DNA of 64,000 nt from Escherichia virus TH15. The position numbers were made by a program, and so were the translations under genes. The notes under the pieces are model-generated. The model worked only from the letters and a program-made list of their open reading frames with translations, was not told the origin of the DNA and did not search any database. The stretch lies in sequence record MT446392.1; one strand, 5' to 3'. Shown here one piece after another: positions 596 to 29,080 of the stretch (positions are counted from its first letter, which is position 1; each line of letters begins with the position of its first letter).

Positions 596-1723
596 ATGGC
601 TTTTATTGTATCTATTGCAGGTTCAGCCTCAATGAAAATTGGCGATAGCGCCAACTATACCGCTACTGCATCAGGAGCAGCGGTGGAAGGAACTGTCACA
701 TATGTATGGACTATTGATGGCGCCTCAAATCCAGAATCAACTAACGTTCTTCGTTATACGGGTACTGCTCCCGCGGGAAAGAAAATTTTAAAAGTAGTCG
801 CGACTTCCACACCGGCTGAAGGTGAGCCTGAAGTAGCCGAAAATACTTTTGAAGTAAATGTATCTAATAAAACTATGAGTATTTCTTTAGCTTTGGACCC
901 AGTTTCTGTATCTAAAGAAATTGGCCAATCTCAAGTTGTTACTGCTAACGTAACAGGTGCTCCTTCTGGAGCCACGATTGCTTATGTTTGGAAACGCAAT
1001 TCTAATGTAATCGCAGGTCAAACTGGTAAAACTATTACCGTAACCGAAGCAGCAGAAGCAAATTATACTTTGAACTGTGAAGTTACGGTTACTGCTCCTG
1101 AATATGATTCAGCTACTGCTACTAAAGGCGCGACGGTAACTTTTGCCAAGAAAACAATGTCAGGTGTTTCTGTTGTTTTAACACCGGAATCAATTAATGT
1201 TCCTAAAGATACACCAGCATCATTTAAGGCCGATGTAGTCGGTGCACCGAGTGAAGCATCCGGTGTTTATACATGGAAAAAAGATGGTTCTCCTGTTGAA
1301 GGTTCAACTTCCACTTTGACAATTGATACAAGTACCGAAGGTTCTCAAGTCATTGAAGTTTCGGTTGTTGTTTCTGCGCCCGATTATAAATCAGTAACAG
1401 TGACAACAACAGGTAATGTTACTATAACAGCTAAAGTTGCGCCGGAACCAGAAGGGGAACTTCCATATATTCATCCATTACCAGTTCGCAATTCAGCATA
1501 TATTTGGGCCGGTTGGTGGGTTATGGATGAGATTCAGAAGATGACTCTTGCTGGTAAAGACTGGAAAACCGATGAACCTGATAGTAATTATTATCTTCAT
1601 CGATACACTCTTGCCAAAATGCTTAATGATTATCCAGAGGTTGATGTACAAGAATCTCGCAATGGTCGAATTATTCATCGCACCGCGCTTGACGCTGGTA
1701 TTATCTACGACTACGTATATTAA
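596..1723 (+). CDS. hoc: Hoc, highly immunogenic outer capsid protein (Ig-like domains plus C-terminal capsid-binding domain)
   Basis: 375 aa; C-terminal block KVAPEPEGELPYIHPLP...WWVMDEIQKMT...YPEVDVQESRNG matches T4 Hoc as remembered; SD present. Confidence 0.9.
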   Translation: MAFIVSIAGSASMKIGDSANYTATASGAAVEGTVTYVWTIDGASNPESTNVLRYTGTAPAGKKILKVVATSTPAEGEPEVAENTFEVNVSNKTMSISLALDPVSVSKEIGQSQVVTANVTGAPSGATIAYVWKRNSNVIAGQTGKTITVTEAAEANYTLNCEVTVTAPEYDSATATKGATVTFAKKTMSGVSVVLTPESINVPKDTPASFKADVVGAPSEASGVYTWKKDGSPVEGSTSTLTIDTSTEGSQVIEVSVVVSAPDYKSVTVTTTGNVTITAKVAPEPEGELPYIHPLPVRNSAYIWAGWWVMDEIQKMTLAGKDWKTDEPDSNYYLHRYTLAKMLNDYPEVDVQESRNGRIIHRTALDAGIIYDYVY

Positions 1724-1753: not shown

Positions 1754-2620
1754 TTACCAAACTAAATCCTTTTTACCTAAAATATATCCGTTTCTTGATT
1801 CCTGTACTTCAATATCAGGATATTTCTCAAGCATTTCTGCTATCTTAGCAAGCTCACATTTGTATTTAAATCTATCGTGCATAGGATTCTTATGCCATTC
1901 AAAGCCTTCTATCAAAGCCTCTAAAATCTCATCATGAACCCACCAGCCAATCCACATATAAACTTTATTTCGACCACCACTTAAATGACTAAGATGCTCA
2001 TACTGATTAAGGTCATGAACATAGATATCTTTACATTCTATAGTAGTAGAAGGAGGAACTAATTGAATGTCAATTAGAGCTGTTGTTTCTTTATATCCAC
2101 CATGACTAAATGCTGTAGTAGATAATGTATAAGTTCCGTAATAAGAATCATCTTCAACAGTAAGACTAAATTGTTCATCAGTTCCTATTTGAATGCCATT
2201 ACGAAGCCAAACACACTTTCTATGAACCCATGTTGGCTCTACTATACACTGAGGAGCAAAATGGACCTGGCCGCCTATAGGAACTTCTATATAAAGTCTA
2301 GTTTTAAACTGTATTGTCGGTTCTCTAAGTTCTTCGCCTATTTCTAATTGAATTCTATTAGTTCTATACATCTCCCCTGTTGACTTAACGCCTAAAAGAG
2401 CGTAATATTCTCCTTCGGCTGGATAACCGACATCCCATAAATTTAGAGTCCATGGGTTTTCAGAATCCAACTTAGGTATAAGAACTACATCTTTATACCA
2501 TGCTACGTGAATATCATCAGGATGTATATTTACAGGCAAAGAAATCTCGGATAAATCAAATGTAATATCTTGACCTATCTGAGCATAATGAGGACCATGC
2601 ATAACGGCATATAATTTCAT
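1754..2620 (-). CDS. Hoc-like capsid decoration protein paralog: divergent N-terminal domains plus conserved Hoc C-terminal capsid-binding module
   Basis: 288 aa; C-terminus YMWIGWWVHDEILEA...YPDIEVQESRNGYIL aligns with Hoc YIWAGWWVMDEIQKM...YPEVDVQESRNGRII in the same window; 9 nt downstream of collagen-like gene. Confidence 0.75.
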   Translation of the reverse strand: MKLYAVMHGPHYAQIGQDITFDLSEISLPVNIHPDDIHVAWYKDVVLIPKLDSENPWTLNLWDVGYPAEGEYYALLGVKSTGEMYRTNRIQLEIGEELREPTIQFKTRLYIEVPIGGQVHFAPQCIVEPTWVHRKCVWLRNGIQIGTDEQFSLTVEDDSYYGTYTLSTTAFSHGGYKETTALIDIQLVPPSTTIECKDIYVHDLNQYEHLSHLSGGRNKVYMWIGWWVHDEILEALIEGFEWHKNPMHDRFKYKCELAKIAEMLEKYPDIEVQESRNGYILGKKDLVW

Positions 2621-2629
2621 GGGTTCTCC

Positions 2630-3949
2630 TTAAGATGCAAATATTATAGGTATACGCCCATGATTATTATTTTTAATAACCTGAATATAGATGTCAGAAT
2701 CAACATAATCATTTAAAGACCCGGTTGGAAGCATTTTTAAAGTATACCAAAAACCTGTGGCTTTATCTATAATTTCTGCAGTTGAACCTTCTCGACACTT
2801 ATCAAAAGAAATGTTATCCCATGTTACCCATGAGCTAGTCAGGTTTAAATTATTATCTGACTTGTTTTCTAAGCCAACCGCGTCATAGTTTGTGGTTCTA
2901 CGATAAGAATATGAAGCTGGCAAAGAGTCATTAAATCTTTTGACACTGATATCAAATGTGTTTTTAGTTGTGACTTTATATTTCATAGAAATATTAGTAT
3001 CAGCTAGTTTGACCGTGGCTTCAGCATTAGGAGAAGACATTGAATTAAAGCTTAAAATAATTTCCCAATATTTCTTAGGTTCAAATGGTTTAAGCTTGTC
3101 ATATAATTCCTCTAATTGAGATTCTGTCAAGCTGCCAATATCAAGAGCAGGGCCTTGAGGGCCTTGTGCACCGTCTATACCATTTTTACCAGGGTCGCCT
3201 TTTAATCCTTGCAGGCCTTGTGGTCCTTGAGGGCCATCTGTTCCAGCAGGACCTTGGTCACCTTTATCTCCTTTATCACCCTTGTCTCCTTTTGCGCCAG
3301 CCGATGCCATTATGGCCCAATCGTCATTTGACGGCAACGGCGGAATACCGGTATGAGTCGTAAGACTAAAATAGGTAGCTCCTTGGTACGCTACGGCGTC
3401 ATTTGGTACATACTCAATAGATATATCATATTCACCTTTCCATATTAATCCTGTTGCTCCTGCGGGGCCCGGGTCGCCTTTAGGACCATCTAGACCATTT
3501 TTACCCGGGTCGCCTTTAGGACCTTGAATACCTTGAATACCTTGAGGGCCGGTAGCCCCATCAATGCCGTTAGTTCCATCAGCCCCTTTAGGACCTTGAA
3601 TACCAGGTGCACCATCCATCCCGTGTACACCTGCCAGGCCTTGGGGACCTTGTAGACCATCTATTCCAGCAGGACCTTGTGGTCCTGGGTCACCTTTTAA
3701 TCCTTGTGGGCCTTGAATGCCCTGGATACCTTGGTCGCCTTTTGGGCCTACTGCGCCATCAGAAATTCCTATAAATGTCTTTGCTTCTTCTGAAGTAGCT
3801 TTAGTTAAAAATTCTAAACTCCAATCGGTAGTTGAACTTGTCGTAATAAGGTCTTCTACTTGTTTTGTATTACCTGCCTCTGGATTTCTAATGGTTTTGC
3901 CAGAAAAGTTACCTCTACCATCATGCCCAAACAATCTTTCGTCAGCCAT
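2630..3949 (-). CDS. collagen-like protein with two Gly-X-Y tracts and a C-terminal globular domain
   Basis: 439 aa; residues ~66-167 and ~217-267 are uninterrupted G-X-Y triplets; late promoter 36 nt upstream. Confidence 0.8.
3149..3301 (-). repeat. collagen Gly-X-Y triplet tract 2 (about 17 triplets, includes [11 protein letters not shown])
   Basis: Read from translation. Confidence 0.8.
3449..3754 (-). repeat. collagen Gly-X-Y triplet tract 1 (about 34 triplets) within collagen-like CDS
   Basis: [22 protein letters not shown]... periodicity read from translation. Confidence 0.8.
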
Positions 3950-3984: not shown

Positions 3985-3992
3985 TATTTATA
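3985..3992 (-). promoter_or_regulatory. T4-type late promoter TATAAATA for collagen-like/hoc-like operon
   Basis: Plus strand TATTTATA = minus TATAAATA, 36 nt upstream of ATG at 3949. Confidence 0.7.
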
Positions 3993-4041: not shown

Positions 4042-4245
4042 ATGAGAATCATTATGGATAAGGTTAAAGTACATTTTTTACATGAATCGGGTATGACATT
4101 TATTGAAATCGCCAAGGTATTGGGCGGGACTGCTAAAGAAATGGCAAAGGCATGGGTTGATGTAGAACACGCCAAAACCAAATTTAAAGCCAAAGAGAAA
4201 GTTGTGTATCGTAAACGTTTGAATAACAAAAAGGTGAAGAAATGA
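4042..4245 (+). CDS. hypothetical small basic protein
   Basis: 67-aa ORF with ATG; position corresponds to T4 24.3/24.2 region. Confidence 0.4.
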   Translation: MRIIMDKVKVHFLHESGMTFIEIAKVLGGTAKEMAKAWVDVEHAKTKFKAKEKVVYRKRLNNKKVKK

Positions 4246-4505
4246 CATTCGCAGAAGAACTACGCCAAATGGCCAAAGAGTCACAAGATAAAGTTGCAAA
4301 TGACTTTATTGCTATATTTCGCAAAGTGGCTATTGCCGCCGCCGAGAATGGCAAAGATGCTGTTAATATGGCAGTTTCTGAAAAAGAGTATGAAGAAGGA
4401 AACCGCGCAAAGATATCTGAATTTCTGCGAGCAGAAAAATTTACATCTTTTACCTGGAATTATGACTGGCAAGATAACAAACCAATGCTGTATGTAAAAT
4501 TCTGA
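4242..4505 (+). CDS. hypothetical protein
   Basis: 87-aa ORF, ATGA overlap with upstream ORF. Confidence 0.45.
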   Translation: MTFAEELRQMAKESQDKVANDFIAIFRKVAIAAAENGKDAVNMAVSEKEYEEGNRAKISEFLRAEKFTSFTWNYDWQDNKPMLYVKF

Positions 4506-4508
4506 CCT

Positions 4509-4538
4509 TTTTGCTTCAAATAAAATTGTGGTATAATG
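4509..4538 (+). promoter_or_regulatory. T4 middle-type promoter: MotA-box-like TTTGCTTCA plus TATAAT -10
   Basis: TGCTT at 4512-4516, TATAAT at 4533-4538, upstream of rnlB. Confidence 0.5.
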
Positions 4539-4634
4539 GTTCTAGACCCTTTGAGACTATTAATTCCTTTCAGAGAAAGAAAGTATAGTGGGTCTAATTT
4601 ATAATGATATTTATAACATCAAAAGTGAGAGAAT

Positions 4635-5639
4635 ATGTTTAAGAAATATAACAGCCTTGAAAATCACTATAACAACAAGTTCATTGAAAAGATTCGCCTG
4701 CAAGGCTTCACCAGCGGTGAATGGGTAGCTCGTGAGAAAATTCATGGTACCAACTTTTCATTAATTATTGAACAAAATAATGTGACATGTGCGAAACGCA
4801 CTGGACCTATCCTACCTGCAGAAGATTTCTATGGCTACGAAATTGTACTCAAGAACTATGCAGATTCCATTAAAACTGTGCAGAGACTTTTACAGGATAT
4901 TAATTACCAATCATACCAAATTTATGGTGAGTTTGCTGGTACAGGTATCCAGAAGAATGTGGATTATGGCGACAAAGATTTCTATGTGTTTGATATCCGC
5001 GTTACTAAGGAAGATGGCTCTGAATCTGTTTTGACTGATTCATTGATGGAAGCCTTCTGTATTATCCATAAATTTAAGGTTGCCCCACGCCTGGCTACGG
5101 GTAGTTTTGAAGACTTGATTAAGCTCCCTAACGACCTGGATTCTGTGGTTCCTGATTACAATTTTACAGTAGATAATGCGGGTTTGACTACCGCGAATAC
5201 CACCGATTTTGACGCAAAGGTTGAAGGTAAAGTATTCACTGCAGAAGGGTATGTTCTTAAACCTGATACTCCTGCCTGGTTACCTAATGGTGAGCGCGTA
5301 GCGATTAAATGTAAGAACTCTAAATTCAGCGAAAAGAAAAAGTCTGATAAGCCTATCAAGGCTGCTGTTGTGTTGTCCCAGGAAGACCTGGACATTTTAT
5401 GGAAGTTTACCGATTATGTGACTGTTAACCGTATCAATAATGTTATCAGTAAAATTGGGGAAGTAACGCCAAAGGATTTTGGAAAGGTAATGGGTTTGAC
5501 TGTTCAAGATATTTTGGAAGAAGCGGGTCGGGAAGGCCTTGAATTAACCCAAACGGAAAATCCTGTTGAAGTTAAAAAGCAACTCATTGCAAATGTAAGA
5601 GATACATTAAGACATGTTTGGATTGCATTAATTAGTTAA
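4635..5639 (+). CDS. rnlB: RNA ligase 2
   Basis: 334 aa; MFKKY..LENHYN.KFIEK...[18 protein letters not shown]...[16 protein letters not shown] matches T4 Rnl2 as remembered; nucleotidyltransferase KxHG lysine motif. Confidence 0.92.
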
Positions 5640-5644
5640 TAAAA

Positions 5645-5670
5645 AAGGGCCGCAAGGCCCTTATTCTTTT
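5645..5670. terminator. bidirectional intrinsic terminator (GGGCC-gcaa-GGCCC) after rnlB (+) and gp24 paralog (-)
   Basis: Hairpin with A6 upstream and T-rich run downstream. Confidence 0.7.
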
Positions 5671-6944
5671 TCCAGTGGTGGAAGTTTAACACCAAGATAA
5701 GAACTCAATTGGCTTTGGTTAGCCATCTTATCCATATCAGCCCCATCAATAATGCGAGCTTCTTTATCGTCTTTAGCAACGGTATAAGGGTTCGCAGTCA
5801 GTGCATAACGAGCTAACAGTGCAACTGTAGGCTGTAAACTTTCAGGGTCAACGATAACCTTGAATTCCCCAACCGAGGTGTCACCCTCATCATCAACTTC
5901 ACTAAGACCTTCCGTATAAGGCGCATAATACAAAGATGCGACCGTCTGACCTTCACCCATATCGGCATTTACGCCAACAATAACATAATCGCATGGGCTA
6001 TTCATATCTGCATAAAGCGGCAAACCGTTCTTCAGAACGCCATAGGCCAATTCATCCTGGTCGTCCTTTTTCTCAACCCAACCAGAAGCTGCTAAAATAG
6101 CTGCACACCGGGAAGAGGCAACTGCATATGTACCAGCGAACGAAGTCTGACGTTGAACTGCGGAATTCATTTCGCACATATAATAATACAGGGTTCGAGC
6201 CCGGTCTTGCGCATTATCATATCTCGGGTCGGTAAGATTCAATACACCTTTTTCAGAAACACCTTGTACCTTGAAGCGGGAACTAACAGTAATAAGGGAT
6301 TGCAGTACGTCCTTATTAATTTCCTCTGCCATTTGAATGCCAAGGATATTATCAATAAAATCTGTTGCGTCGAAACCATTTGCTTCCAGGTCCTGAGCAA
6401 GCTCAACAGTTAAAGAGGTTTTCAGTTTTCTGGATTTGACTTCGGTCTGCCATTTATCGATACGGAAACCGGCTTCAGCAATTTCAGGATGACCCTGTTC
6501 AAATTTATTAGTGAAAGCTGCATCCGACATCATTCTTATATGGCCAGCAGCAATGGCTTCAGAAATAACTTCACCCAAATCAGTTTCAAGGGTCCCAGCA
6601 AAAGGAGAAGCTTCCAAAACTTTGAATACAACGCTTTCGAACTGGAACATATCGCCGACTGCATAAGCTTCGTCTTTATTTGTAAATTCTGGGATATTCT
6701 TACGCTCGAACATGCCAATCTGGCCTGCAAATGTTGCTCCACCAAGATATGTCATTTTATCATCTGGGTTCAGAACACGAACACCATACAACGCTGCAAC
6801 AGGCTGGGTAGTTTTCTGTTCGGCAACGAGTGCTTTAAAAATTCGTTTATTCGTAGCCTGGGTATAAGAAAGCAAATTAGGACGGGCGACCTGGTTGGCC
6901 GCCGTTAATGTTGATTCGTGAATTAGTGCGTTAATCTTTTGCAT
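5661..6944 (-). CDS. second gp24-like head vertex protein (divergent tandem paralog)
   Basis: 427 aa; shares NKWxxxVKSRKLKTxLTVELAQDxEANGF and INKDVLQSLITVS blocks with adjacent gp24; start ATG abuts gp24 stop (TAAATG). Confidence 0.8.
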   Translation of the reverse strand: MQKINALIHESTLTAANQVARPNLLSYTQATNKRIFKALVAEQKTTQPVAALYGVRVLNPDDKMTYLGGATFAGQIGMFERKNIPEFTNKDEAYAVGDMFQFESVVFKVLEASPFAGTLETDLGEVISEAIAAGHIRMMSDAAFTNKFEQGHPEIAEAGFRIDKWQTEVKSRKLKTSLTVELAQDLEANGFDATDFIDNILGIQMAEEINKDVLQSLITVSSRFKVQGVSEKGVLNLTDPRYDNAQDRARTLYYYMCEMNSAVQRQTSFAGTYAVASSRCAAILAASGWVEKKDDQDELAYGVLKNGLPLYADMNSPCDYVIVGVNADMGEGQTVASLYYAPYTEGLSEVDDEGDTSVGEFKVIVDPESLQPTVALLARYALTANPYTVAKDDKEARIIDGADMDKMANQSQLSSYLGVKLPPLEKE

Positions 6945-8225
6945 TTACGCCTCATAAATGATTGGCGGAAGTTTAACACCGAGCAGATAAGACATATTGC
7001 TCTGGCCGGCCATTAAATCCATATTAGTTGCATCGATAATACGAGCTTCTTTGTCGTCTTTAGCAACGGTGTAAGGGTTAGCTGAAAGTGCATATCGAAC
7101 CATCAGGGAGATAGATGGCTGCAAGCTGTCTGGGTCCACAATGACCTTAAATGCACCTACGTGTTCTTCATCATCTAAGTCCAGGCCTTCGGTATAAGGA
7201 GCATAGAAGATTGAGCCTACGACTTCGTTTCCGCCATAATTTTCTTTAACGCCAACGGTTACATAATCTAATGGACTGTTAACATCACAGAATACAGGAA
7301 GACCATTAATCAAATAACCATACGCGGTTTCCGGGAGCCATTGTTCATCTTCAGGTTTATGTTTCAACCAACCGGAACCGGCGAGCATCGCGGCCACACG
7401 ACTTGAGGCAACAACGAATGTACCAGAGTAAGATGTAGTTTTCTGAATTTCAGAGTTCATTTCGCACACCAGTTCGTACAGTTTACGTGCGCCTTCTGGA
7501 GCTGAATCATATGTCAAATCGATGAAACCTTTATCAGAAACGCCAGTGACTTTATAACGCTTGGAAACGGTAATCAGAGACTGAAGAACATCTTTGTTAA
7601 TTTCATCTGCCATAGTAGTTGCAAGCAGGTCTTCCAGGAAAGCAGGAGCATTAAAACCGTTTGCTTCCATATCCTGTGCAAGTTCAACAGTCAGTGCAGT
7701 TTTCAATTTACGGGATTTAACAGGAGCATTCCATTTATTAACCTGGAATACAGCGTTACTAATTTCAACATCACCAGCTTCAAATTTCTCGGTGTGTGCA
7801 GCATCAGGAACTAAACGAATAGTCGATGCAATAAGACCTTCTTGCAGAACATCAGATAATACTGTTTCTGTAGTCGTTGCAAATGGATTATCCACCAGAG
7901 CTTTGTAAACGATATTTTGATATTTTACATATTCGCCTTTAGCAACAGGTTGAGTAGCTGTAGCTAATTCTGGAATAGTTGTACGGTCTTTAGAACCGAC
8001 TTCACCACCATAAGTAGCACCAGTCTGGAAACTGAATTCATTATCAGGAGTAAGATATTTAACACCGTACAGCGCAGCAACAGGCTGGTTAGTACGTTGT
8101 TCAGCGATGATATCGCGGTAAATCAATTTAGTTGTAGCGCGGGTCAAAGCAACAAGATTCGGGCGGCCTAATGAGTTGCTGGATGTAGTAGTTGACTCGC
8201 GCAGCAGTTCGTTAATCTTTGCCAT
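6945..8225 (-). CDS. 24: gp24 head vertex protein
   Basis: 426 aa; N-terminus MAKINELLRESTTT...GRPNLVALTRATTKLIY matches T4 gp24 as remembered. Confidence 0.9.
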   Translation of the reverse strand: MAKINELLRESTTTSSNSLGRPNLVALTRATTKLIYRDIIAEQRTNQPVAALYGVKYLTPDNEFSFQTGATYGGEVGSKDRTTIPELATATQPVAKGEYVKYQNIVYKALVDNPFATTTETVLSDVLQEGLIASTIRLVPDAAHTEKFEAGDVEISNAVFQVNKWNAPVKSRKLKTALTVELAQDMEANGFNAPAFLEDLLATTMADEINKDVLQSLITVSKRYKVTGVSDKGFIDLTYDSAPEGARKLYELVCEMNSEIQKTTSYSGTFVVASSRVAAMLAGSGWLKHKPEDEQWLPETAYGYLINGLPVFCDVNSPLDYVTVGVKENYGGNEVVGSIFYAPYTEGLDLDDEEHVGAFKVIVDPDSLQPSISLMVRYALSANPYTVAKDDKEARIIDATNMDLMAGQSNMSYLLGVKLPPIIYEA

Positions 8226-8250: not shown

Positions 8251-8258
8251 TATTTATA
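8251..8258 (-). promoter_or_regulatory. T4-type late promoter TATAAATA upstream of gene 24
   Basis: Minus-strand TATAAATA 26 nt upstream of ATG at 8225. Confidence 0.65.
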
Positions 8259-8264
8259 AAAGTT

Positions 8265-8294
8265 GTTTACACTCTAGTTGAACTGAGTTATAAT
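8265..8294 (+). promoter_or_regulatory. early-type promoter (GTTTAC -35, TATAAT -10) for homing endonuclease gene
   Basis: GTTTAC 8265-8270, 18-nt spacer, TATAAT 8289-8294. Confidence 0.5.
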
Positions 8295-8318: not shown

Positions 8319-8978
8319 ATGCATTATTTAATTTACAAAATAACTAACTTGATAAATCATAAAATTTATATTGGGGCGCACGCCACAGAAAACGTGTATG
8401 ACTCCTATATGGGGTCGGGAGTCAACATTGTCAAATCCATCAAAAAACATGGTATTAAGAACTTTAAAAAAGAAATTTTGTTTGTTTTTGATACTTCATA
8501 TGAAATGTATGAGAAAGAAGCTGAACTTGTTAATGAACAATTTGTGCTTAGAGCTGATACATACAATGCAGCTATTGGCGGCAAGGGAAATCCAATTATT
8601 GTTAAACTACAAGACCCTTCATACAGAAAAATGATTTCAGAAAAGACAAAAGCAGGTATGACCGTAGAAGTAAAGCGGAAAATATCAATAGCAAAAACAG
8701 GAGTCAAACAGTCACAAGAGCTTATTGATAAACGTACGGCGGGTGTCAAAAAATATTTAGAAACACACCAGCATCACAACAAAAATAAACCAATAAGCGA
8801 TAGCCACCGCAAAGCAATTTCAGAAAAATTAAAAGGGATTAAAAAACTTATTAAGATTTCAATCAAAGGTAAGACTTTTGATAACCCAGATTTTGCTGCT
8901 GAACATTTTGGCGTTTCTCCAAAAACAATACGCAATTGGATAAATTCAGATAAACACCCAGACTGCTTCAAACAATAA
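8319..8978 (+). CDS. GIY-YIG homing endonuclease (Seg-like) with NUMOD3-type DNA-binding repeats
   Basis: 219 aa; N-terminal [19 protein letters not shown]...GSG GIY-YIG-type motif; inserted between genes 23 and 24 on opposite strand. Confidence 0.8.
8319..8978 (+). mobile_element. free-standing homing endonuclease gene insertion between 24 and 23
   Basis: Same as CDS; opposite strand to flanking late genes. Confidence 0.6.
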
Positions 8979-9016: not shown

Positions 9017-10576
9017 TTAAATTCCCTTAACATATACACGTCTAAAGTAACCGTTCAAGCCGAGGCTGTTAACGATGTCCGGCATACCGTTTTGAATACG
9101 CTTGGTCGGAGCCTGAGCTGCCGGGTCAGCGAACGGGTTAATACCGATACCGTAACGGGTTTTGAAGCCCATAACCGGCTGGAAGTTTTTCGGGTCAGAG
9201 CCACGCAGCGGTGTCAGTGCAACATATGGTGCGTAGTAGATACCAGCATCCATTTCGTTAGCACCTTTGTAACCGATGGTGAAGTAATCTGCGCGAGCAT
9301 ACTGGTCGATATAGACACGGTATTTGCCACCCAGAACACCAGCGAACACAGCTTTAGTGGTGTCAACGTTGAAACCTTTACCCAGACCCTGAGCAGCATA
9401 AGATACGGAGGTATCAACTGCAGCCAGTACGTTAACTACGTTACGGGAAGCGATGATGAAGTTACCTGCACCACGACCGGTCTGACGAGCGATTTCAGCA
9501 GCTTCTTTGTCAATCTGGAACAGTAAAGCTTTGAAGCTTTCACCAGCCCAACGAGCGCCACGGATATCAATCGGGTCCTGGAAGTCAAACACACCAGCTT
9601 TAGCGCCAACGGTGTTGGTCATACCAGATTTACCAACCTGTGCGGAGTAGTTAATCCAATCGATAACTTCGCGGTTGATTTCCAGCATAATTTCAGTAGC
9701 CAGAATACCACTCAATTCAGCATCAGCGTCCATACCGTGAACAGCGCGCAGGTCCTGTGCCAGTTCGATAGAGTAGCTTGCTTTCAGCTGACGGGATTTA
9801 GCTTCGATAACTTGTTTATCGATGCGGAAGCCCATTTCGTTCCACGGGTTATCCTGAGAACCGTTGAAACCTTCCTGCAGTTCGGCGATAGAGGTAGCCA
9901 TACCTTCAGCGATTTCTGCCAGTTTACCAGCTTCGAGCAGTTTGGTAACTTCAGCGTCAAGTTTAGCAGCATCAGTAGCGGCGGCATCAACGGTTACAGC
10001 TTCAACAGCCTGGTAGTGTGCGGAACCGGTTGCTTCGAAGAAGTGAGAATAAATTTTACCAACGGTAAGAACTTTGCTTGCAGCCAGAGCTTCGAAAGCT
10101 TCAGCAGCGCCCTGACCGGAGAACATAGCGTTCGGAGCATACATCGGGTGGAAAGCTTCTTTAGCACCAGCAGCTACAGGGTCTTTACCGTAAACTGCAC
10201 GCAGGGCAAATACCTGGCCAGTCGGGTTGTTCAGAGGCTGGACGCCACAAATATCAAACGCAATCAGATGCGGGATAGCACGACGAACCATACCCATAAC
10301 TGCCGGCCCAATCTGAGTTACTGCACCAGAGGTCTGGCCAGCAGCGATATTGGTAGCATCATAACCATGGTCACCACCGATTTCAGCTTCGGTCAGGAAA
10401 GAACCAAATGCTTCGGAGATTTTTTCGTCACGGTATTCTGGAGCGGTCAGGATATCTTGTTCCTGGTTTTCAAAGATTTTAGCGATGATAGCTTGTTTAG
10501 AAGCACCAACGATTTCAGGAAGAGCTTCATTTTCCAGCAGAGCGGACCATTTTTGTACTAATGCATTCTTTTTCAT
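9017..10576 (-). CDS. 23: gp23 major capsid protein
   Basis: 519 aa; long blocks matching T4 gp23 as remembered (AIIAKIFENQE, GPAVMGMVRRAIP, NPWNEMGFRIDKQVIEAKSRQLKA). Confidence 0.97.
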   Translation of the reverse strand: MKKNALVQKWSALLENEALPEIVGASKQAIIAKIFENQEQDILTAPEYRDEKISEAFGSFLTEAEIGGDHGYDATNIAAGQTSGAVTQIGPAVMGMVRRAIPHLIAFDICGVQPLNNPTGQVFALRAVYGKDPVAAGAKEAFHPMYAPNAMFSGQGAAEAFEALAASKVLTVGKIYSHFFEATGSAHYQAVEAVTVDAAATDAAKLDAEVTKLLEAGKLAEIAEGMATSIAELQEGFNGSQDNPWNEMGFRIDKQVIEAKSRQLKASYSIELAQDLRAVHGMDADAELSGILATEIMLEINREVIDWINYSAQVGKSGMTNTVGAKAGVFDFQDPIDIRGARWAGESFKALLFQIDKEAAEIARQTGRGAGNFIIASRNVVNVLAAVDTSVSYAAQGLGKGFNVDTTKAVFAGVLGGKYRVYIDQYARADYFTIGYKGANEMDAGIYYAPYVALTPLRGSDPKNFQPVMGFKTRYGIGINPFADPAAQAPTKRIQNGMPDIVNSLGLNGYFRRVYVKGI

Positions 10577-29072: not shown

Positions 29073-29080
29073 TATTTATA
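29073..29080 (-). promoter_or_regulatory. T4-type late promoter TATAAATA upstream of gene 9
   Basis: 28 nt upstream of ATG at 29045. Confidence 0.65.

What the first reader, a model, noticed from the sequence alone, without database searches (positions are those of the whole stretch)
5661..8225. Tandem divergent duplication of the head vertex gene 24
Two ORFs of 426 and 427 aa lie head to tail with stop and start abutting (TAAATG). The upstream copy is close to T4 gp24; the downstream copy shares long blocks but is roughly half identical by eye. Only the upstream copy has an obvious late promoter, so they are probably co-transcribed. Two vertex paralogs could form mixed or alternative pentamers.
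Basis: partly seen in the sequence, partly recalled or inferred. Interest (0 to 1): 0.6.

Follow-up and report, generated by a model that had tools for sequence, protein, structure and literature searches.

The report
Known tandem pair of head-vertex genes
This T4-like phage carries two adjacent, co-transcribed genes for the protein that caps the corners of its head; the pair is real and both copies are kept by selection, but it is a standard feature already annotated in about a hundred related phage genomes, and what the second copy does is still untested.

Summary
24a (6945-8225, 426 aa) and 24b (5661-6944, 427 aa) abut as TAA|ATG. One late promoter lies upstream and one terminator downstream. 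24a is 71% identical to T4 gp24. 24b is 55-56% identical to both 24a and T4 gp24.

The window is a Gaprivervirus (VR25/VR7-like). The same pair is annotated in JS98 (24a/24b), VR7 (24(1)/24(2)) and VR25 (capsid vertex protein I/II). About 90-106 phage records carry it, across Dhakavirus, Gaprivervirus, part of Kanagawavirus, and Roskildevirus/FBB1. The arrangement is therefore already known.

New here:
- 24b is an ancient paralogue lineage, not a recent local duplicate. Support for 24a and 24b grouping together without the single-copy gp24s is 0%.
- The two copies have diverged in step (Mantel r 0.86).
- Both are under strong purifying selection (dN/dS 0.02-0.10).
- Both keep the gp21 cleavage motif.
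- Conserved differences between them are concentrated in the N-terminal arm.
- Phage AnYang has 99.6%-identical gp23 but a single foreign gp24, so the pair is not structurally obligatory.

Most likely both are processed vertex proteins forming separate homopentamers. I found no proteomic or structural test of this.

The parts
8251..8258 (-). T4-type late promoter core TATAAATA upstream of 24a
   Evidence: Exact match found. It is the only one in or beside the pair. The first 46 nt upstream of 24a are 100% conserved in VR7/VR20/VR25/VR26.
6945..8225 (-). Gene 24a (426 aa): orthologue of T4 gp24 head vertex protein
   Evidence: ORF listed. It is 71% identical to T4 gp24 and 99.8% to VR25 'capsid vertex protein I'. 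Pfam PF07068 E 3e-99. N-terminus is MAKINELLRE|STTT, as in T4.
6950..6953 (-). GAGG Shine-Dalgarno-like motif for 24b inside the end of 24a, followed by the TAA|ATG junction (6942-6947)
   Evidence: Read directly from the sequence. An equivalent tight junction with a purine-rich motif is present in all other pair-bearing loci read: L004-L007, L020, L021, L023.
5661..6944 (-). Gene 24b (427 aa): ancient gp24 paralogue
   Evidence: ORF listed. It is 55% identical to 24a and to T4 gp24 and 99.3% to VR20 'capsid vertex protein II'. PDB gp24 chains 1yue/7vs5/5vf3 match at E 1e-148. The AF2 model matches in-capsid gp24* at TM 0.79-0.81 against 0.53-0.57 for gp23. dN/dS is 0.02-0.10.
5645..5662 (-). 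Intrinsic-terminator-like hairpin plus T-run ending the 24a-24b transcript. It is bidirectional and also follows rnlB on the + strand.
   Evidence: Found in the scan. Fold energy is -13.3 kcal/mol, z = -2.6.
9017..10576 (-). Context: gene 23 major capsid protein (519 aa), followed by its own terminator-like hairpin at 9001-8982(-)
   Evidence: gp23 is 99.8% identical to VR7 and 85% to T4.
4635..5639 (+). Context: rnlB RNA ligase 2, convergent with 24b, as in T4, JS98 and VR7
   Evidence: plus the annotations seen.

Best explanation
The locus is the known bicistronic late operon 24a-24b of JS98/VR7-type T4-like phages.

Shown:
- One late promoter, two abutting ORFs with a conserved coupling junction, and one terminator.
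- 24a is the orthologue of T4 gp24.
- 24b belongs to a separate, old gp24 paralogue lineage. In every context I read, it is found only as the second gene of such a pair.
- Both copies are kept by strong purifying selection and have diverged in step across at least four genus-level groups.

Inferred:
- Both proteins are made late in a fixed ratio by translational coupling.
- Both enter the prohead and are trimmed by the gp21 protease after Glu10.
- Both serve as pentameric vertex capsomers in the same gp23 lattice.
- Their conserved differences concentrate in the N-terminal arm. In T4 this arm pairs with the I-domain linker of the neighbouring subunit in the same pentamer. They therefore most likely form separate homopentamers (24a5 and 24b5) shared out among the 11 non-portal vertices, rather than mixed pentamers.
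- The second vertex type is adaptive rather than architecturally required, because a near-identical head module works with a single gp24 in phage AnYang.
For: - Anatomy of the operon.
- Identity and annotation in relatives.
- gp24-type rather than gp23-type: PDB E 1e-148 against 1e-12; fold TM 0.79-0.81 against 0.53-0.57.
- Selection: dN/dS is 0.02-0.10 in both copies over eight orthologous comparisons. Synonymous sites between the paralogues are saturated (pS 0.65-0.69). The longest shared nucleotide run is 17 nt, so there has been no recent gene conversion.
- Co-inheritance: the 24a and 24b clade topologies mirror each other. Mantel r is 0.86 (p 0.0002) over 18 genomes/contigs, and within-genome a-b identity is constant at 52-57%.
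- Tight stop/start junction with an SD-like motif in all loci read.
- L(L/I)xE|S motif present in every 24b. E10 and S11 are invariant in 47 sequences. T4 gp24 loses 10 N-terminal residues to gp21 (PMC9546572).
- The P-domain/spine and C-terminal segments are the parts most alike between the copies (67-69%).
- 8 of 22 'conserved-but-different' sites fall in T4 residues 25-57 (Fisher p 0.0055). In T4, residues 26-29 beta-pair with the I-linker of the adjacent gp24* (PMC9546572).
- AnYang: gp23 is 99.6% identical to ABTNLsp5, and gp22/rnlB/Hoc are 96-98% identical to JS98, yet it has one gp24 that is only 68%/53% identical to 24a/24b.
Against: - I found no direct evidence that 24b is in the virion. 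Ten full-text searches found no proteomics, genetics or cryo-EM on the pair. The JS98 genome paper (PMC2168658) is not held, and I did not try to retrieve the VR7 genome paper.
- Cleavage, pentamer formation and homopentamer preference are inferred from T4 and from sequence patterns only.
- Eight of the 18 a/b partner assignments rest on the two proteins sharing a longest-contig length, not on a read locus.
- Trees are neighbour-joining on corrected distances, so long-branch effects on the position of 24b cannot be excluded.
- In T4 all 55 gp24* subunits are conformationally alike, so there is no known structural need for two vertex types.
Confidence: 0.6

Rival explanations
1. Recent, lineage-specific tandem duplication of this phage's own gene 24, followed by rapid divergence of the downstream copy (the reading implied by the finding's title).
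For: The genes are adjacent and of the same length, with shared conserved blocks. 24b carries more fixed changes at otherwise conserved sites than 24a (23 against 4), which looks like asymmetric divergence.
Against: A 24a+24b clade is never recovered (0% of 200 bootstraps, under four column/distance schemes). 24a groups with single-copy T4, Moonvirus, Karamvirus, AnYang and PEi26 gp24s at 95-98%. 24b shares only 1 of 11 substitutions private to 24a. The pair already exists, with the same roughly 55% a-b identity, in the deepest 24b lineages such as Erwinia phages FBB1 and Cronus. Acceleration changes a branch's length, not where it attaches.
Confidence: 0.05
2. Origin by horizontal acquisition: 24b came from a distant T4-like phage (branching near Jiaodavirus/Tegunavirus) and was inserted behind the resident gene 24, then spread as a two-gene cassette.
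For: 24b is closer to Jiaodavirus gp24 (63-64%) than to its neighbour 24a (55-56%). Its position relative to Jiaodavirus/Tegunavirus is unresolved. Vertex alleles clearly are exchanged: the AnYang replacement, the a-allele swaps in contigs c20182 and c80268, and single- and double-copy members within Kanagawavirus.
Against: No single-copy 24b-type gene was found. The 24b-type genes in all 13 loci read sit second in a pair. Eight more share a longest-contig length with an a-type protein. With only the better-conserved C-terminal 60% of the protein, 24b comes out as sister to the crown clade in 52% of bootstraps. That fits an old duplication at the base of the crown followed by losses.
Confidence: 0.2
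3. The two proteins co-assemble into mixed (hetero)pentamers at every vertex.
For: Translational coupling should give a fixed ratio of the two proteins in the same place and time. The A-domain core is moderately conserved between the copies (55%).
Against: A five-fold ring cannot hold two subunit types symmetrically. Paralogue-specific conserved changes cluster in the N-arm segment that in T4 pairs with the neighbouring subunit of the same pentamer, which suggests self-matched interfaces. This is inference only.
Confidence: 0.12
4. 24b is not a mature vertex component. It could act as an assembly factor or prohead-only protein, occupy another special lattice position, or serve as a decoy or back-up against a host defence that senses or targets the vertex protein.
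For: The pair can be replaced by one gp24 in a near-identical head module (AnYang), so 24b is not needed to close the lattice. The surface I-domain and N-arm are the most diverged parts.
Against: The full-length gp24 fold is retained, with a better match to in-capsid gp24* than to gp23. The protease motif is invariant. The lattice-facing P-domain segments are conserved. Selective constraint is as strong as, or stronger than, on 24a (mean p-distance 0.22 against 0.26; dN/dS).
Confidence: 0.12
5. 24b is a decaying or redundant pseudogene-like copy.
For: None beyond its divergence from T4 gp24.
Against: The ORF is intact in all genomes read. dN/dS is 0.02-0.10 with saturated dS. There are 160 sites conserved in both clades. 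About 106 phage records hold a copy at least 80% identical.
Confidence: 0.01

Closest known systems
Genes 24a/24b of Escherichia phage JS98 (EF469154), 24(1)/24(2) of vB_EcoM-VR7 (HM563683), and 'capsid vertex protein I/II' of VR25/VR20/VR26/VR5
   Same: Same two genes in the same order between gene 23 and rnlB, with the same abutting junction. The window proteins are 99.8% (24a against VR25) and 99.3% (24b against VR20) identical, and 90%/95% identical to JS98 24a/24b.
   Different: Nothing of substance within the pair. This phage differs next to it: a GIY-YIG homing-endonuclease gene replaces the small ORF found between genes 23 and 24 in VR7 and JS98.
T4 gp24 head vertex protein (PDB 1YUE, 5VF3, 7VRT, 7VS5)
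   Same: 24a is 71% and 24b 55% identical. They share the length, the N-terminal L-x-E|S processing motif, the HK97 fold with I-domain, the genomic position after gene 23, and late-promoter control.
   Different: T4 has one copy and builds all 11 vertices from it, whereas this locus has two. 24b carries 23 fixed substitutions at positions at least 90% conserved in other Tevenvirinae gp24s, mostly in residues 8-72.
The gp23/gp24 paralogy itself (vertex protein derived from the major capsid protein; gp24-bypass mutations in gene 23)
   Same: It is another round of duplication and specialisation within the same capsid-protein family (PF07068). As with gp24 in bypass mutants, the extra paralogue is dispensable in principle (PMC3012670 and PMC9546572; AnYang).
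   Different: gp23 and gp24 share about 21-23% identity and have clearly different roles (hexamers versus pentamers). 24a and 24b share 55% identity, and both look like pentamer-type proteins.
Tandem pairs in Erwinia phages Cronus (Roskildevirus) and FBB1, and in some Kanagawavirus Enterobacter phages (CIP9, MY742)
   Same: Same 23 - 24a-type - 24b-type order with 0-2 nt between stop and start. The 24b orthologues are 69-82% identical.
   Different: In the Erwinia-type loci, a collagen-like 'tail fiber protein' gene and a small structural-protein gene follow 24b directly. In the window the homologous collagen-like gene lies 1.7 kb further on, behind rnlB.

Membership tests
T4 gp24 head vertex protein family (gp24 branch of Pfam PF07068) | Significant match to the Gp23/Gp24 capsid-protein profile | tested here: met
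   PF07068 E 3.4e-99 (24a) and 9.4e-98 (24b), both far above the gathering score.
T4 gp24 head vertex protein family (gp24 branch of Pfam PF07068) | Closer to gp24 than to gp23 in sequence and fold | tested here: met
   24b against PDB: gp24 chains E 1e-148, gp23 chains E 1e-12. The AF2 model (pLDDT 74.7) matches 5vf3_a gp24* at TM 0.79/0.81 and 56% identity, against gp23 at TM 0.53-0.57 and 23% identity. 24a is 71% identical to T4 gp24.
T4 gp24 head vertex protein family (gp24 branch of Pfam PF07068) | About 427 aa with a short N-terminal propeptide removed by the gp21 protease after Glu10 | tested here: inconclusive
   The motif is present: 24a reads LLRE|ST and 24b reads LIHE|ST. E10 and S11 are invariant in 47 homologues, and the motif is kept in all 18 24b sequences. 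Actual cleavage cannot be tested with these tools.
T4 gp24 head vertex protein family (gp24 branch of Pfam PF07068) | Late gene located directly after gene 23 and before rnlB | tested here: met
   Order is 22-23-(HEG)-24a-24b-rnlB. TATAAATA lies 26 nt upstream of 24a.
T4 gp24 head vertex protein family (gp24 branch of Pfam PF07068) | Forms pentamers at the 11 non-portal vertices of the mature head | not testable with these tools
   This needs virion proteomics or cryo-EM. No such data for pair-bearing phages were found in ten literature searches.
Annotated 24a/24b (vertex protein I/II) pair of Dhakavirus/Gaprivervirus | Two gp24 ORFs in tandem between gene 23 and rnlB, with orthology of each copy to the annotated genes | tested here: met
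   Nucleotide identity is 95.8% to VR25 over the whole pair. Each copy falls in the corresponding 100%-bootstrap clade with JS98 and VR7 24a or 24b.

The most novel reading that the evidence does not exclude
The two paralogues may encode a positional or functional code for the vertices of the prolate head. 24a pentamers and 24b pentamers would occupy different symmetry classes of vertex (one apical, five distal-ring, five portal-proximal). Alternatively, 24b vertices would offer a distinct outer surface that anchors a vertex-specific decoration, such as the collagen-like late protein whose gene directly follows 24b in Erwinia phages Cronus and FBB1. A corollary is that the single gene 24 of T4 is a secondary loss from a two-vertex-protein ancestor.
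Probability: 0.12. Interest if true: 0.7.

Novelty: already known. Interest (0 to 1): 0.3.

Why it matters
T4 is the reference model for prolate capsid assembly, and its vertices are built from one protein. A sizeable natural group of close relatives has kept two vertex proteins under strong selection, apparently for as long as the T4/JS98/Erwinia-phage lineages have existed. That suggests the vertices do something beyond closing the shell, such as stability, decoration or interaction with the environment. The arrangement is already in the databases, so the finding is not a discovery. It does mark an open and testable question, and phage AnYang offers a natural one-gene control.

Tried and rejected
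1. Literature. Ten full-text searches and targeted reads found no discussion, proteomics or structure of the double gene 24. The papers read were PMC2771037, PMC5384007, PMC13600099, PMC8056088, PMC2993671, PMC10580926, PMC9785759, PMC8307508 and PMC3622015. The JS98 genome paper (PMC2168658) is not held, and I did not try to retrieve the VR7 genome paper. 'Not characterised' therefore means 'not found in this library'.

2. Recent gene conversion between the copies: rejected. The longest identical run is 17 nt and pS is 0.47-0.92 in all 30-codon windows. pS is only mildly lower at the extreme C-terminus.

3. Pseudogene: rejected by dN/dS.

4. A synapomorphy count to place 24b inside or outside the crown clade was inconclusive: 4 derived against 5 ancestral states. 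The derived ones cluster at the termini.

5. Exclusive link between 24b and the collagen-like protein: rejected. Homologues also occur in Aeromonas phages next to Hoc-like genes, and I saw no second gp24 in those phages. JS98 has no collagen-like gene annotated in the locus I read.

6. Internal promoter for 24b: there is no late-promoter core. The sigma-70-like matches inside the genes are at shuffle level (13 found against 9.2 expected).

7. The structure prediction added only confirmation of the fold. The N-arm (residues 1-33), where the interesting differences lie, is modelled at low confidence.
Full report
**1. What is there**

The window holds two ORFs on the minus strand. 24a is at 6945..8225 (426 aa) and 24b at 5661..6944 (427 aa). 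On the coding strand the junction reads GAGGCG-TAA-ATG, so the stop of 24a abuts the start of 24b, with a GAGG motif 5 nt ahead of the ATG. Upstream lies gene 23 (9017..10576). It is followed by its own terminator-like hairpin and by a plus-strand GIY-YIG homing-endonuclease ORF (8319..8978). Downstream is the convergent rnlB (4635..5639).

The only T4-type late promoter core near the pair is TATAAATA at 8251-8258(-). None lies within the two genes. There is no terminator-like site between the copies on the coding strand. A GC-rich hairpin with a T-run sits on the 24b stop codon at 5662-5645(-), with fold energy -13.3 kcal/mol and z = -2.6. The anatomy is a bicistronic late operon.

**2. Identity of the two proteins**

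- 24a is 71% identical to T4 gp24.
- 24b is 55% identical to T4 gp24 and 55% to 24a.
- Both match Pfam PF07068 at about E 1e-98.
- 24b matches the solved gp24 chains (1YUE, 7VRT/7VS5, 5VF3, 8GMO) at about E 1e-148, and gp23 chains only at about E 1e-12.
- An AlphaFold model of 24b (mean pLDDT 74.7) superposes best on in-capsid gp24* (5vf3_a, TM 0.79/0.81). It superposes on gp23 at only TM 0.53-0.57.

24b is therefore a gp24-type protein, not a gp23-type protein.

**3. It is a known, standard arrangement**

The 3-kb region is 95.8% identical to Escherichia phage vB_EcoM_VR25 and 93-94% identical to VR7, VR20 and VR26 (Gaprivervirus). 89 phage records cover at least 80% of it. GenBank annotates the pair as follows:

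- 24(1)/24(2) 'capsid vertex protein' in VR7;
- 'capsid vertex protein I/II' in VR25, VR20, VR26 and VR5;
- 24a/24b 'gp24 head vertex protein' in JS98.

By tblastn, about 91 records hold a 24a at 80% identity or more, and about 106 hold a 24b at 80% or more. Some 1,400-1,500 records have a full-length gp24 match. I read pairs in:

- Dhakavirus (JS98, ABTNLsp5, dhabil);
- Gaprivervirus (VR7, the window);
- Enterobacter phages of or near Kanagawavirus (CIP9; MY742, whose record carries no genus assignment);
- Roskildevirus (Erwinia phage Cronus);
- metagenomic contigs of the Erwinia phage FBB1 type.

Ten full-text searches and nine paper reads found no functional, proteomic or structural study of the double gene. 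The JS98 genome paper is not held, and I did not try to retrieve the VR7 genome paper.

**4. Origin: not a recent local duplication**

I built a neighbour-joining tree of 27 gp24s with 300 bootstraps. The 24a and 24b clades are each monophyletic at 100%, and their internal topologies mirror each other. 24a nests at 100% with the single-copy gp24s of T4, Merlin, Karamvirus, AnYang and PEi26, to the exclusion of 24b.

I then added the deep FBB1-type pairs and varied the distance correction and the columns used. The results were:

- 24b stays monophyletic at 100%.
- The clade of all a-type plus single-copy 'crown' gp24s excludes 24b at 95-98%.
- A 24a+24b clade appears in 0% of replicates.

Other observations agree. 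24b shares only 1 of 11 substitutions private to 24a. It is closer to Jiaodavirus gp24 (63-64%) than to its own neighbour.

A database search with 24b found a graded 24b-type clade down to 66-70% identity, including FBB1. In all four loci of that deep branch that I read (three metagenomic contigs and phage Cronus), the 24b-type gene is again the second of a 23-24a-24b array, with 0-2 nt between stop and start.

Across 18 genomes or contigs the pairwise distances among a-copies and among b-copies are correlated (Mantel r 0.86, p 0.0002). The within-genome a-b identity is constant at 52-57%. Eight of those partner assignments rest on the two proteins sharing a longest-contig length rather than on a read locus.

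The simplest reading is one old event, either a duplication at or below the base of the crown Tevenvirinae or an early acquisition. Long co-inheritance, several losses and some allele swapping followed. Where 24b sits relative to Jiaodavirus and Tegunavirus is unresolved. With only T4 residues 166-427, it is sister to the crown in 52% of replicates. These are distance trees, so long-branch artefacts are not excluded.

**5. Both copies are functional**

Nei-Gojobori dN/dS over eight orthologous comparisons is 0.02-0.09 for 24a and 0.02-0.10 for 24b. Synonymous differences between the paralogues are saturated (pS 0.65-0.69). The longest identical nucleotide run is 17 nt, so there is no recent gene conversion. 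24b is, if anything, slightly more conserved than 24a (mean p-distance 0.22 against 0.26).

Every 24b keeps the L(L/I)xE|S motif at residues 7-11, and E10 and S11 are invariant in a 47-sequence alignment. In T4, gp21 removes the 10 N-terminal residues of gp24 inside the prohead (PMC9546572).

**6. Where the paralogues differ**

Identity between the copies is lowest in the I-domain and its linkers (38-48%). That region is also the most variable within each clade, so its divergence is general surface variability. Identity is highest in the P-domain/spine segment (T4 residues 166-240, 69%) and in the C-terminal P-domain segment (67%).

Sites conserved within each clade but different between them number 22. 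Eight of them fall in T4 residues 25-57 (Fisher p 0.0055). In the narrower set, 24b has 23 fixed changes at positions at least 90% conserved elsewhere, against 4 for 24a, and 15 of the 23 lie in residues 8-72.

In the expanded T4 head, residues 11-20 of gp24* reach onto the neighbouring gp23 hexamer. Residues 26-29 beta-pair with the I-domain linker of the adjacent gp24* in the same pentamer (PMC9546572). I infer that the two paralogues share lattice-facing surfaces but have different intra-pentamer and arm contacts. That favours separate homopentamers over mixed rings. This step is inference.

**7. A natural control**

Phage AnYang (Dhakavirus anyang) has gp23 that is 99.6% identical to ABTNLsp5 and 97.9% to JS98. 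Its gp22, RnlB and Hoc are 96-98% identical to those of JS98. Yet it has a single gp24 between the same flanking genes, only 68% identical to 24a and 53% to 24b. That gp24 groups with the gp24 of Edwardsiella phage PEi26, a Kanagawavirus that also has one copy.

A practically identical gp23 lattice can therefore be closed with one vertex protein. The two-protein state is maintained by selection but is not architecturally obligatory, and vertex alleles move between phages.

**8. Verdict**

What remains open is the function of the second vertex protein. My best estimate (0.6) is that both are gp21-processed vertex capsomers made in a coupled ratio and forming separate homopentamers. Rivals are heteropentamers (0.12), a non-vertex or decoy role (0.12) and a pseudogene (0.01). 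On the separate question of origin, horizontal acquisition of 24b rates 0.2 and a recent local duplication 0.05.

The most novel reading not excluded is a positional or decoration code for the vertices, with T4's single gene 24 being a secondary loss. I put this at about 0.12.

Noticed in passing
window 8319-8978 (+), with a sigma-70-like promoter at 8266-8294 (+): A 219-aa GIY-YIG (SegE-type, Pfam PF19835) homing-endonuclease ORF sits between genes 23 and 24a. This is the position segD occupies in T4, and VR7 and JS98 have only a small hypothetical ORF there. Megablast finds no match to it in 50,697 phage records. Only the first 46 nt (the 24a leader) match, so the insertion appears specific to this phage at the nucleotide level.
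   Followed up: partly
window 2630-3949 (-), late promoter core at 3985-3992 (-): A 439-aa collagen-repeat late protein (Pfam Collagen E 3e-26). Its non-collagen N-terminus ([14 protein letters not shown]) and C-terminal domain are homologous (E 1e-47, 35% identity) to the gene lying directly downstream of 24b in FBB1-type contigs. By position and size this corresponds to the 'tail fiber protein' annotated right after the pair in Erwinia phage Cronus. Its C-terminal domain has no close match in any phage record, VR7/VR25 included (best hit 44% to ABTNLsp5). Homologues also sit next to Hoc-like genes in Aeromonas phages, so it may be a head-decoration fibre. The link to 24b is not exclusive.
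   Followed up: partly
window 1754-2620 (-) and 596-1723 (+): A 288-aa ORF directly after the collagen-like gene lies at the position of VR7 ORF197w, which is annotated as 'similar to Hoc'. It has no Pfam hit here. A 375-aa ORF on the other strand lies at the position of hoc in VR7 and gives only a sub-threshold Ig-domain hit. This phage group seems to carry an enlarged set of head-decoration genes beside the vertex pair.
   Followed up: no
L024 (Escherichia phage AnYang, MK234886) 4145-5425; L010 (Edwardsiella phage PEi26): Single-copy gp24 occurs within genera that otherwise carry the pair. AnYang keeps a Dhakavirus head module (gp23 99.6% identical to ABTNLsp5) but has one foreign gp24 allele that groups with PEi26. 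Within Kanagawavirus, PEi26 has one copy and CIP9 two. The vertex module is exchanged between phages.
   Followed up: yes
contigs behind P0013/P0036 (80,268 nt) and P0015/P0082 (20,182 nt): In these two metagenomic contigs the 24b-type copy is close to those of contigs c44063 and c172845 (p-distance 0.17-0.18), but the a-type partner is very different (0.34-0.35). This suggests replacement of the a-allele alone next to a resident 24b. The pairing is inferred from shared contig length only.
   Followed up: no
window, whole: There are 19 exact TATAAATA late-promoter cores against 5.4 expected. All 14 up to position 29,080 are on the minus strand, and all 5 from 38,369 onward are on the plus strand. 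This marks a switch in late-gene orientation somewhere between about 29 and 38 kb.
   Followed up: no
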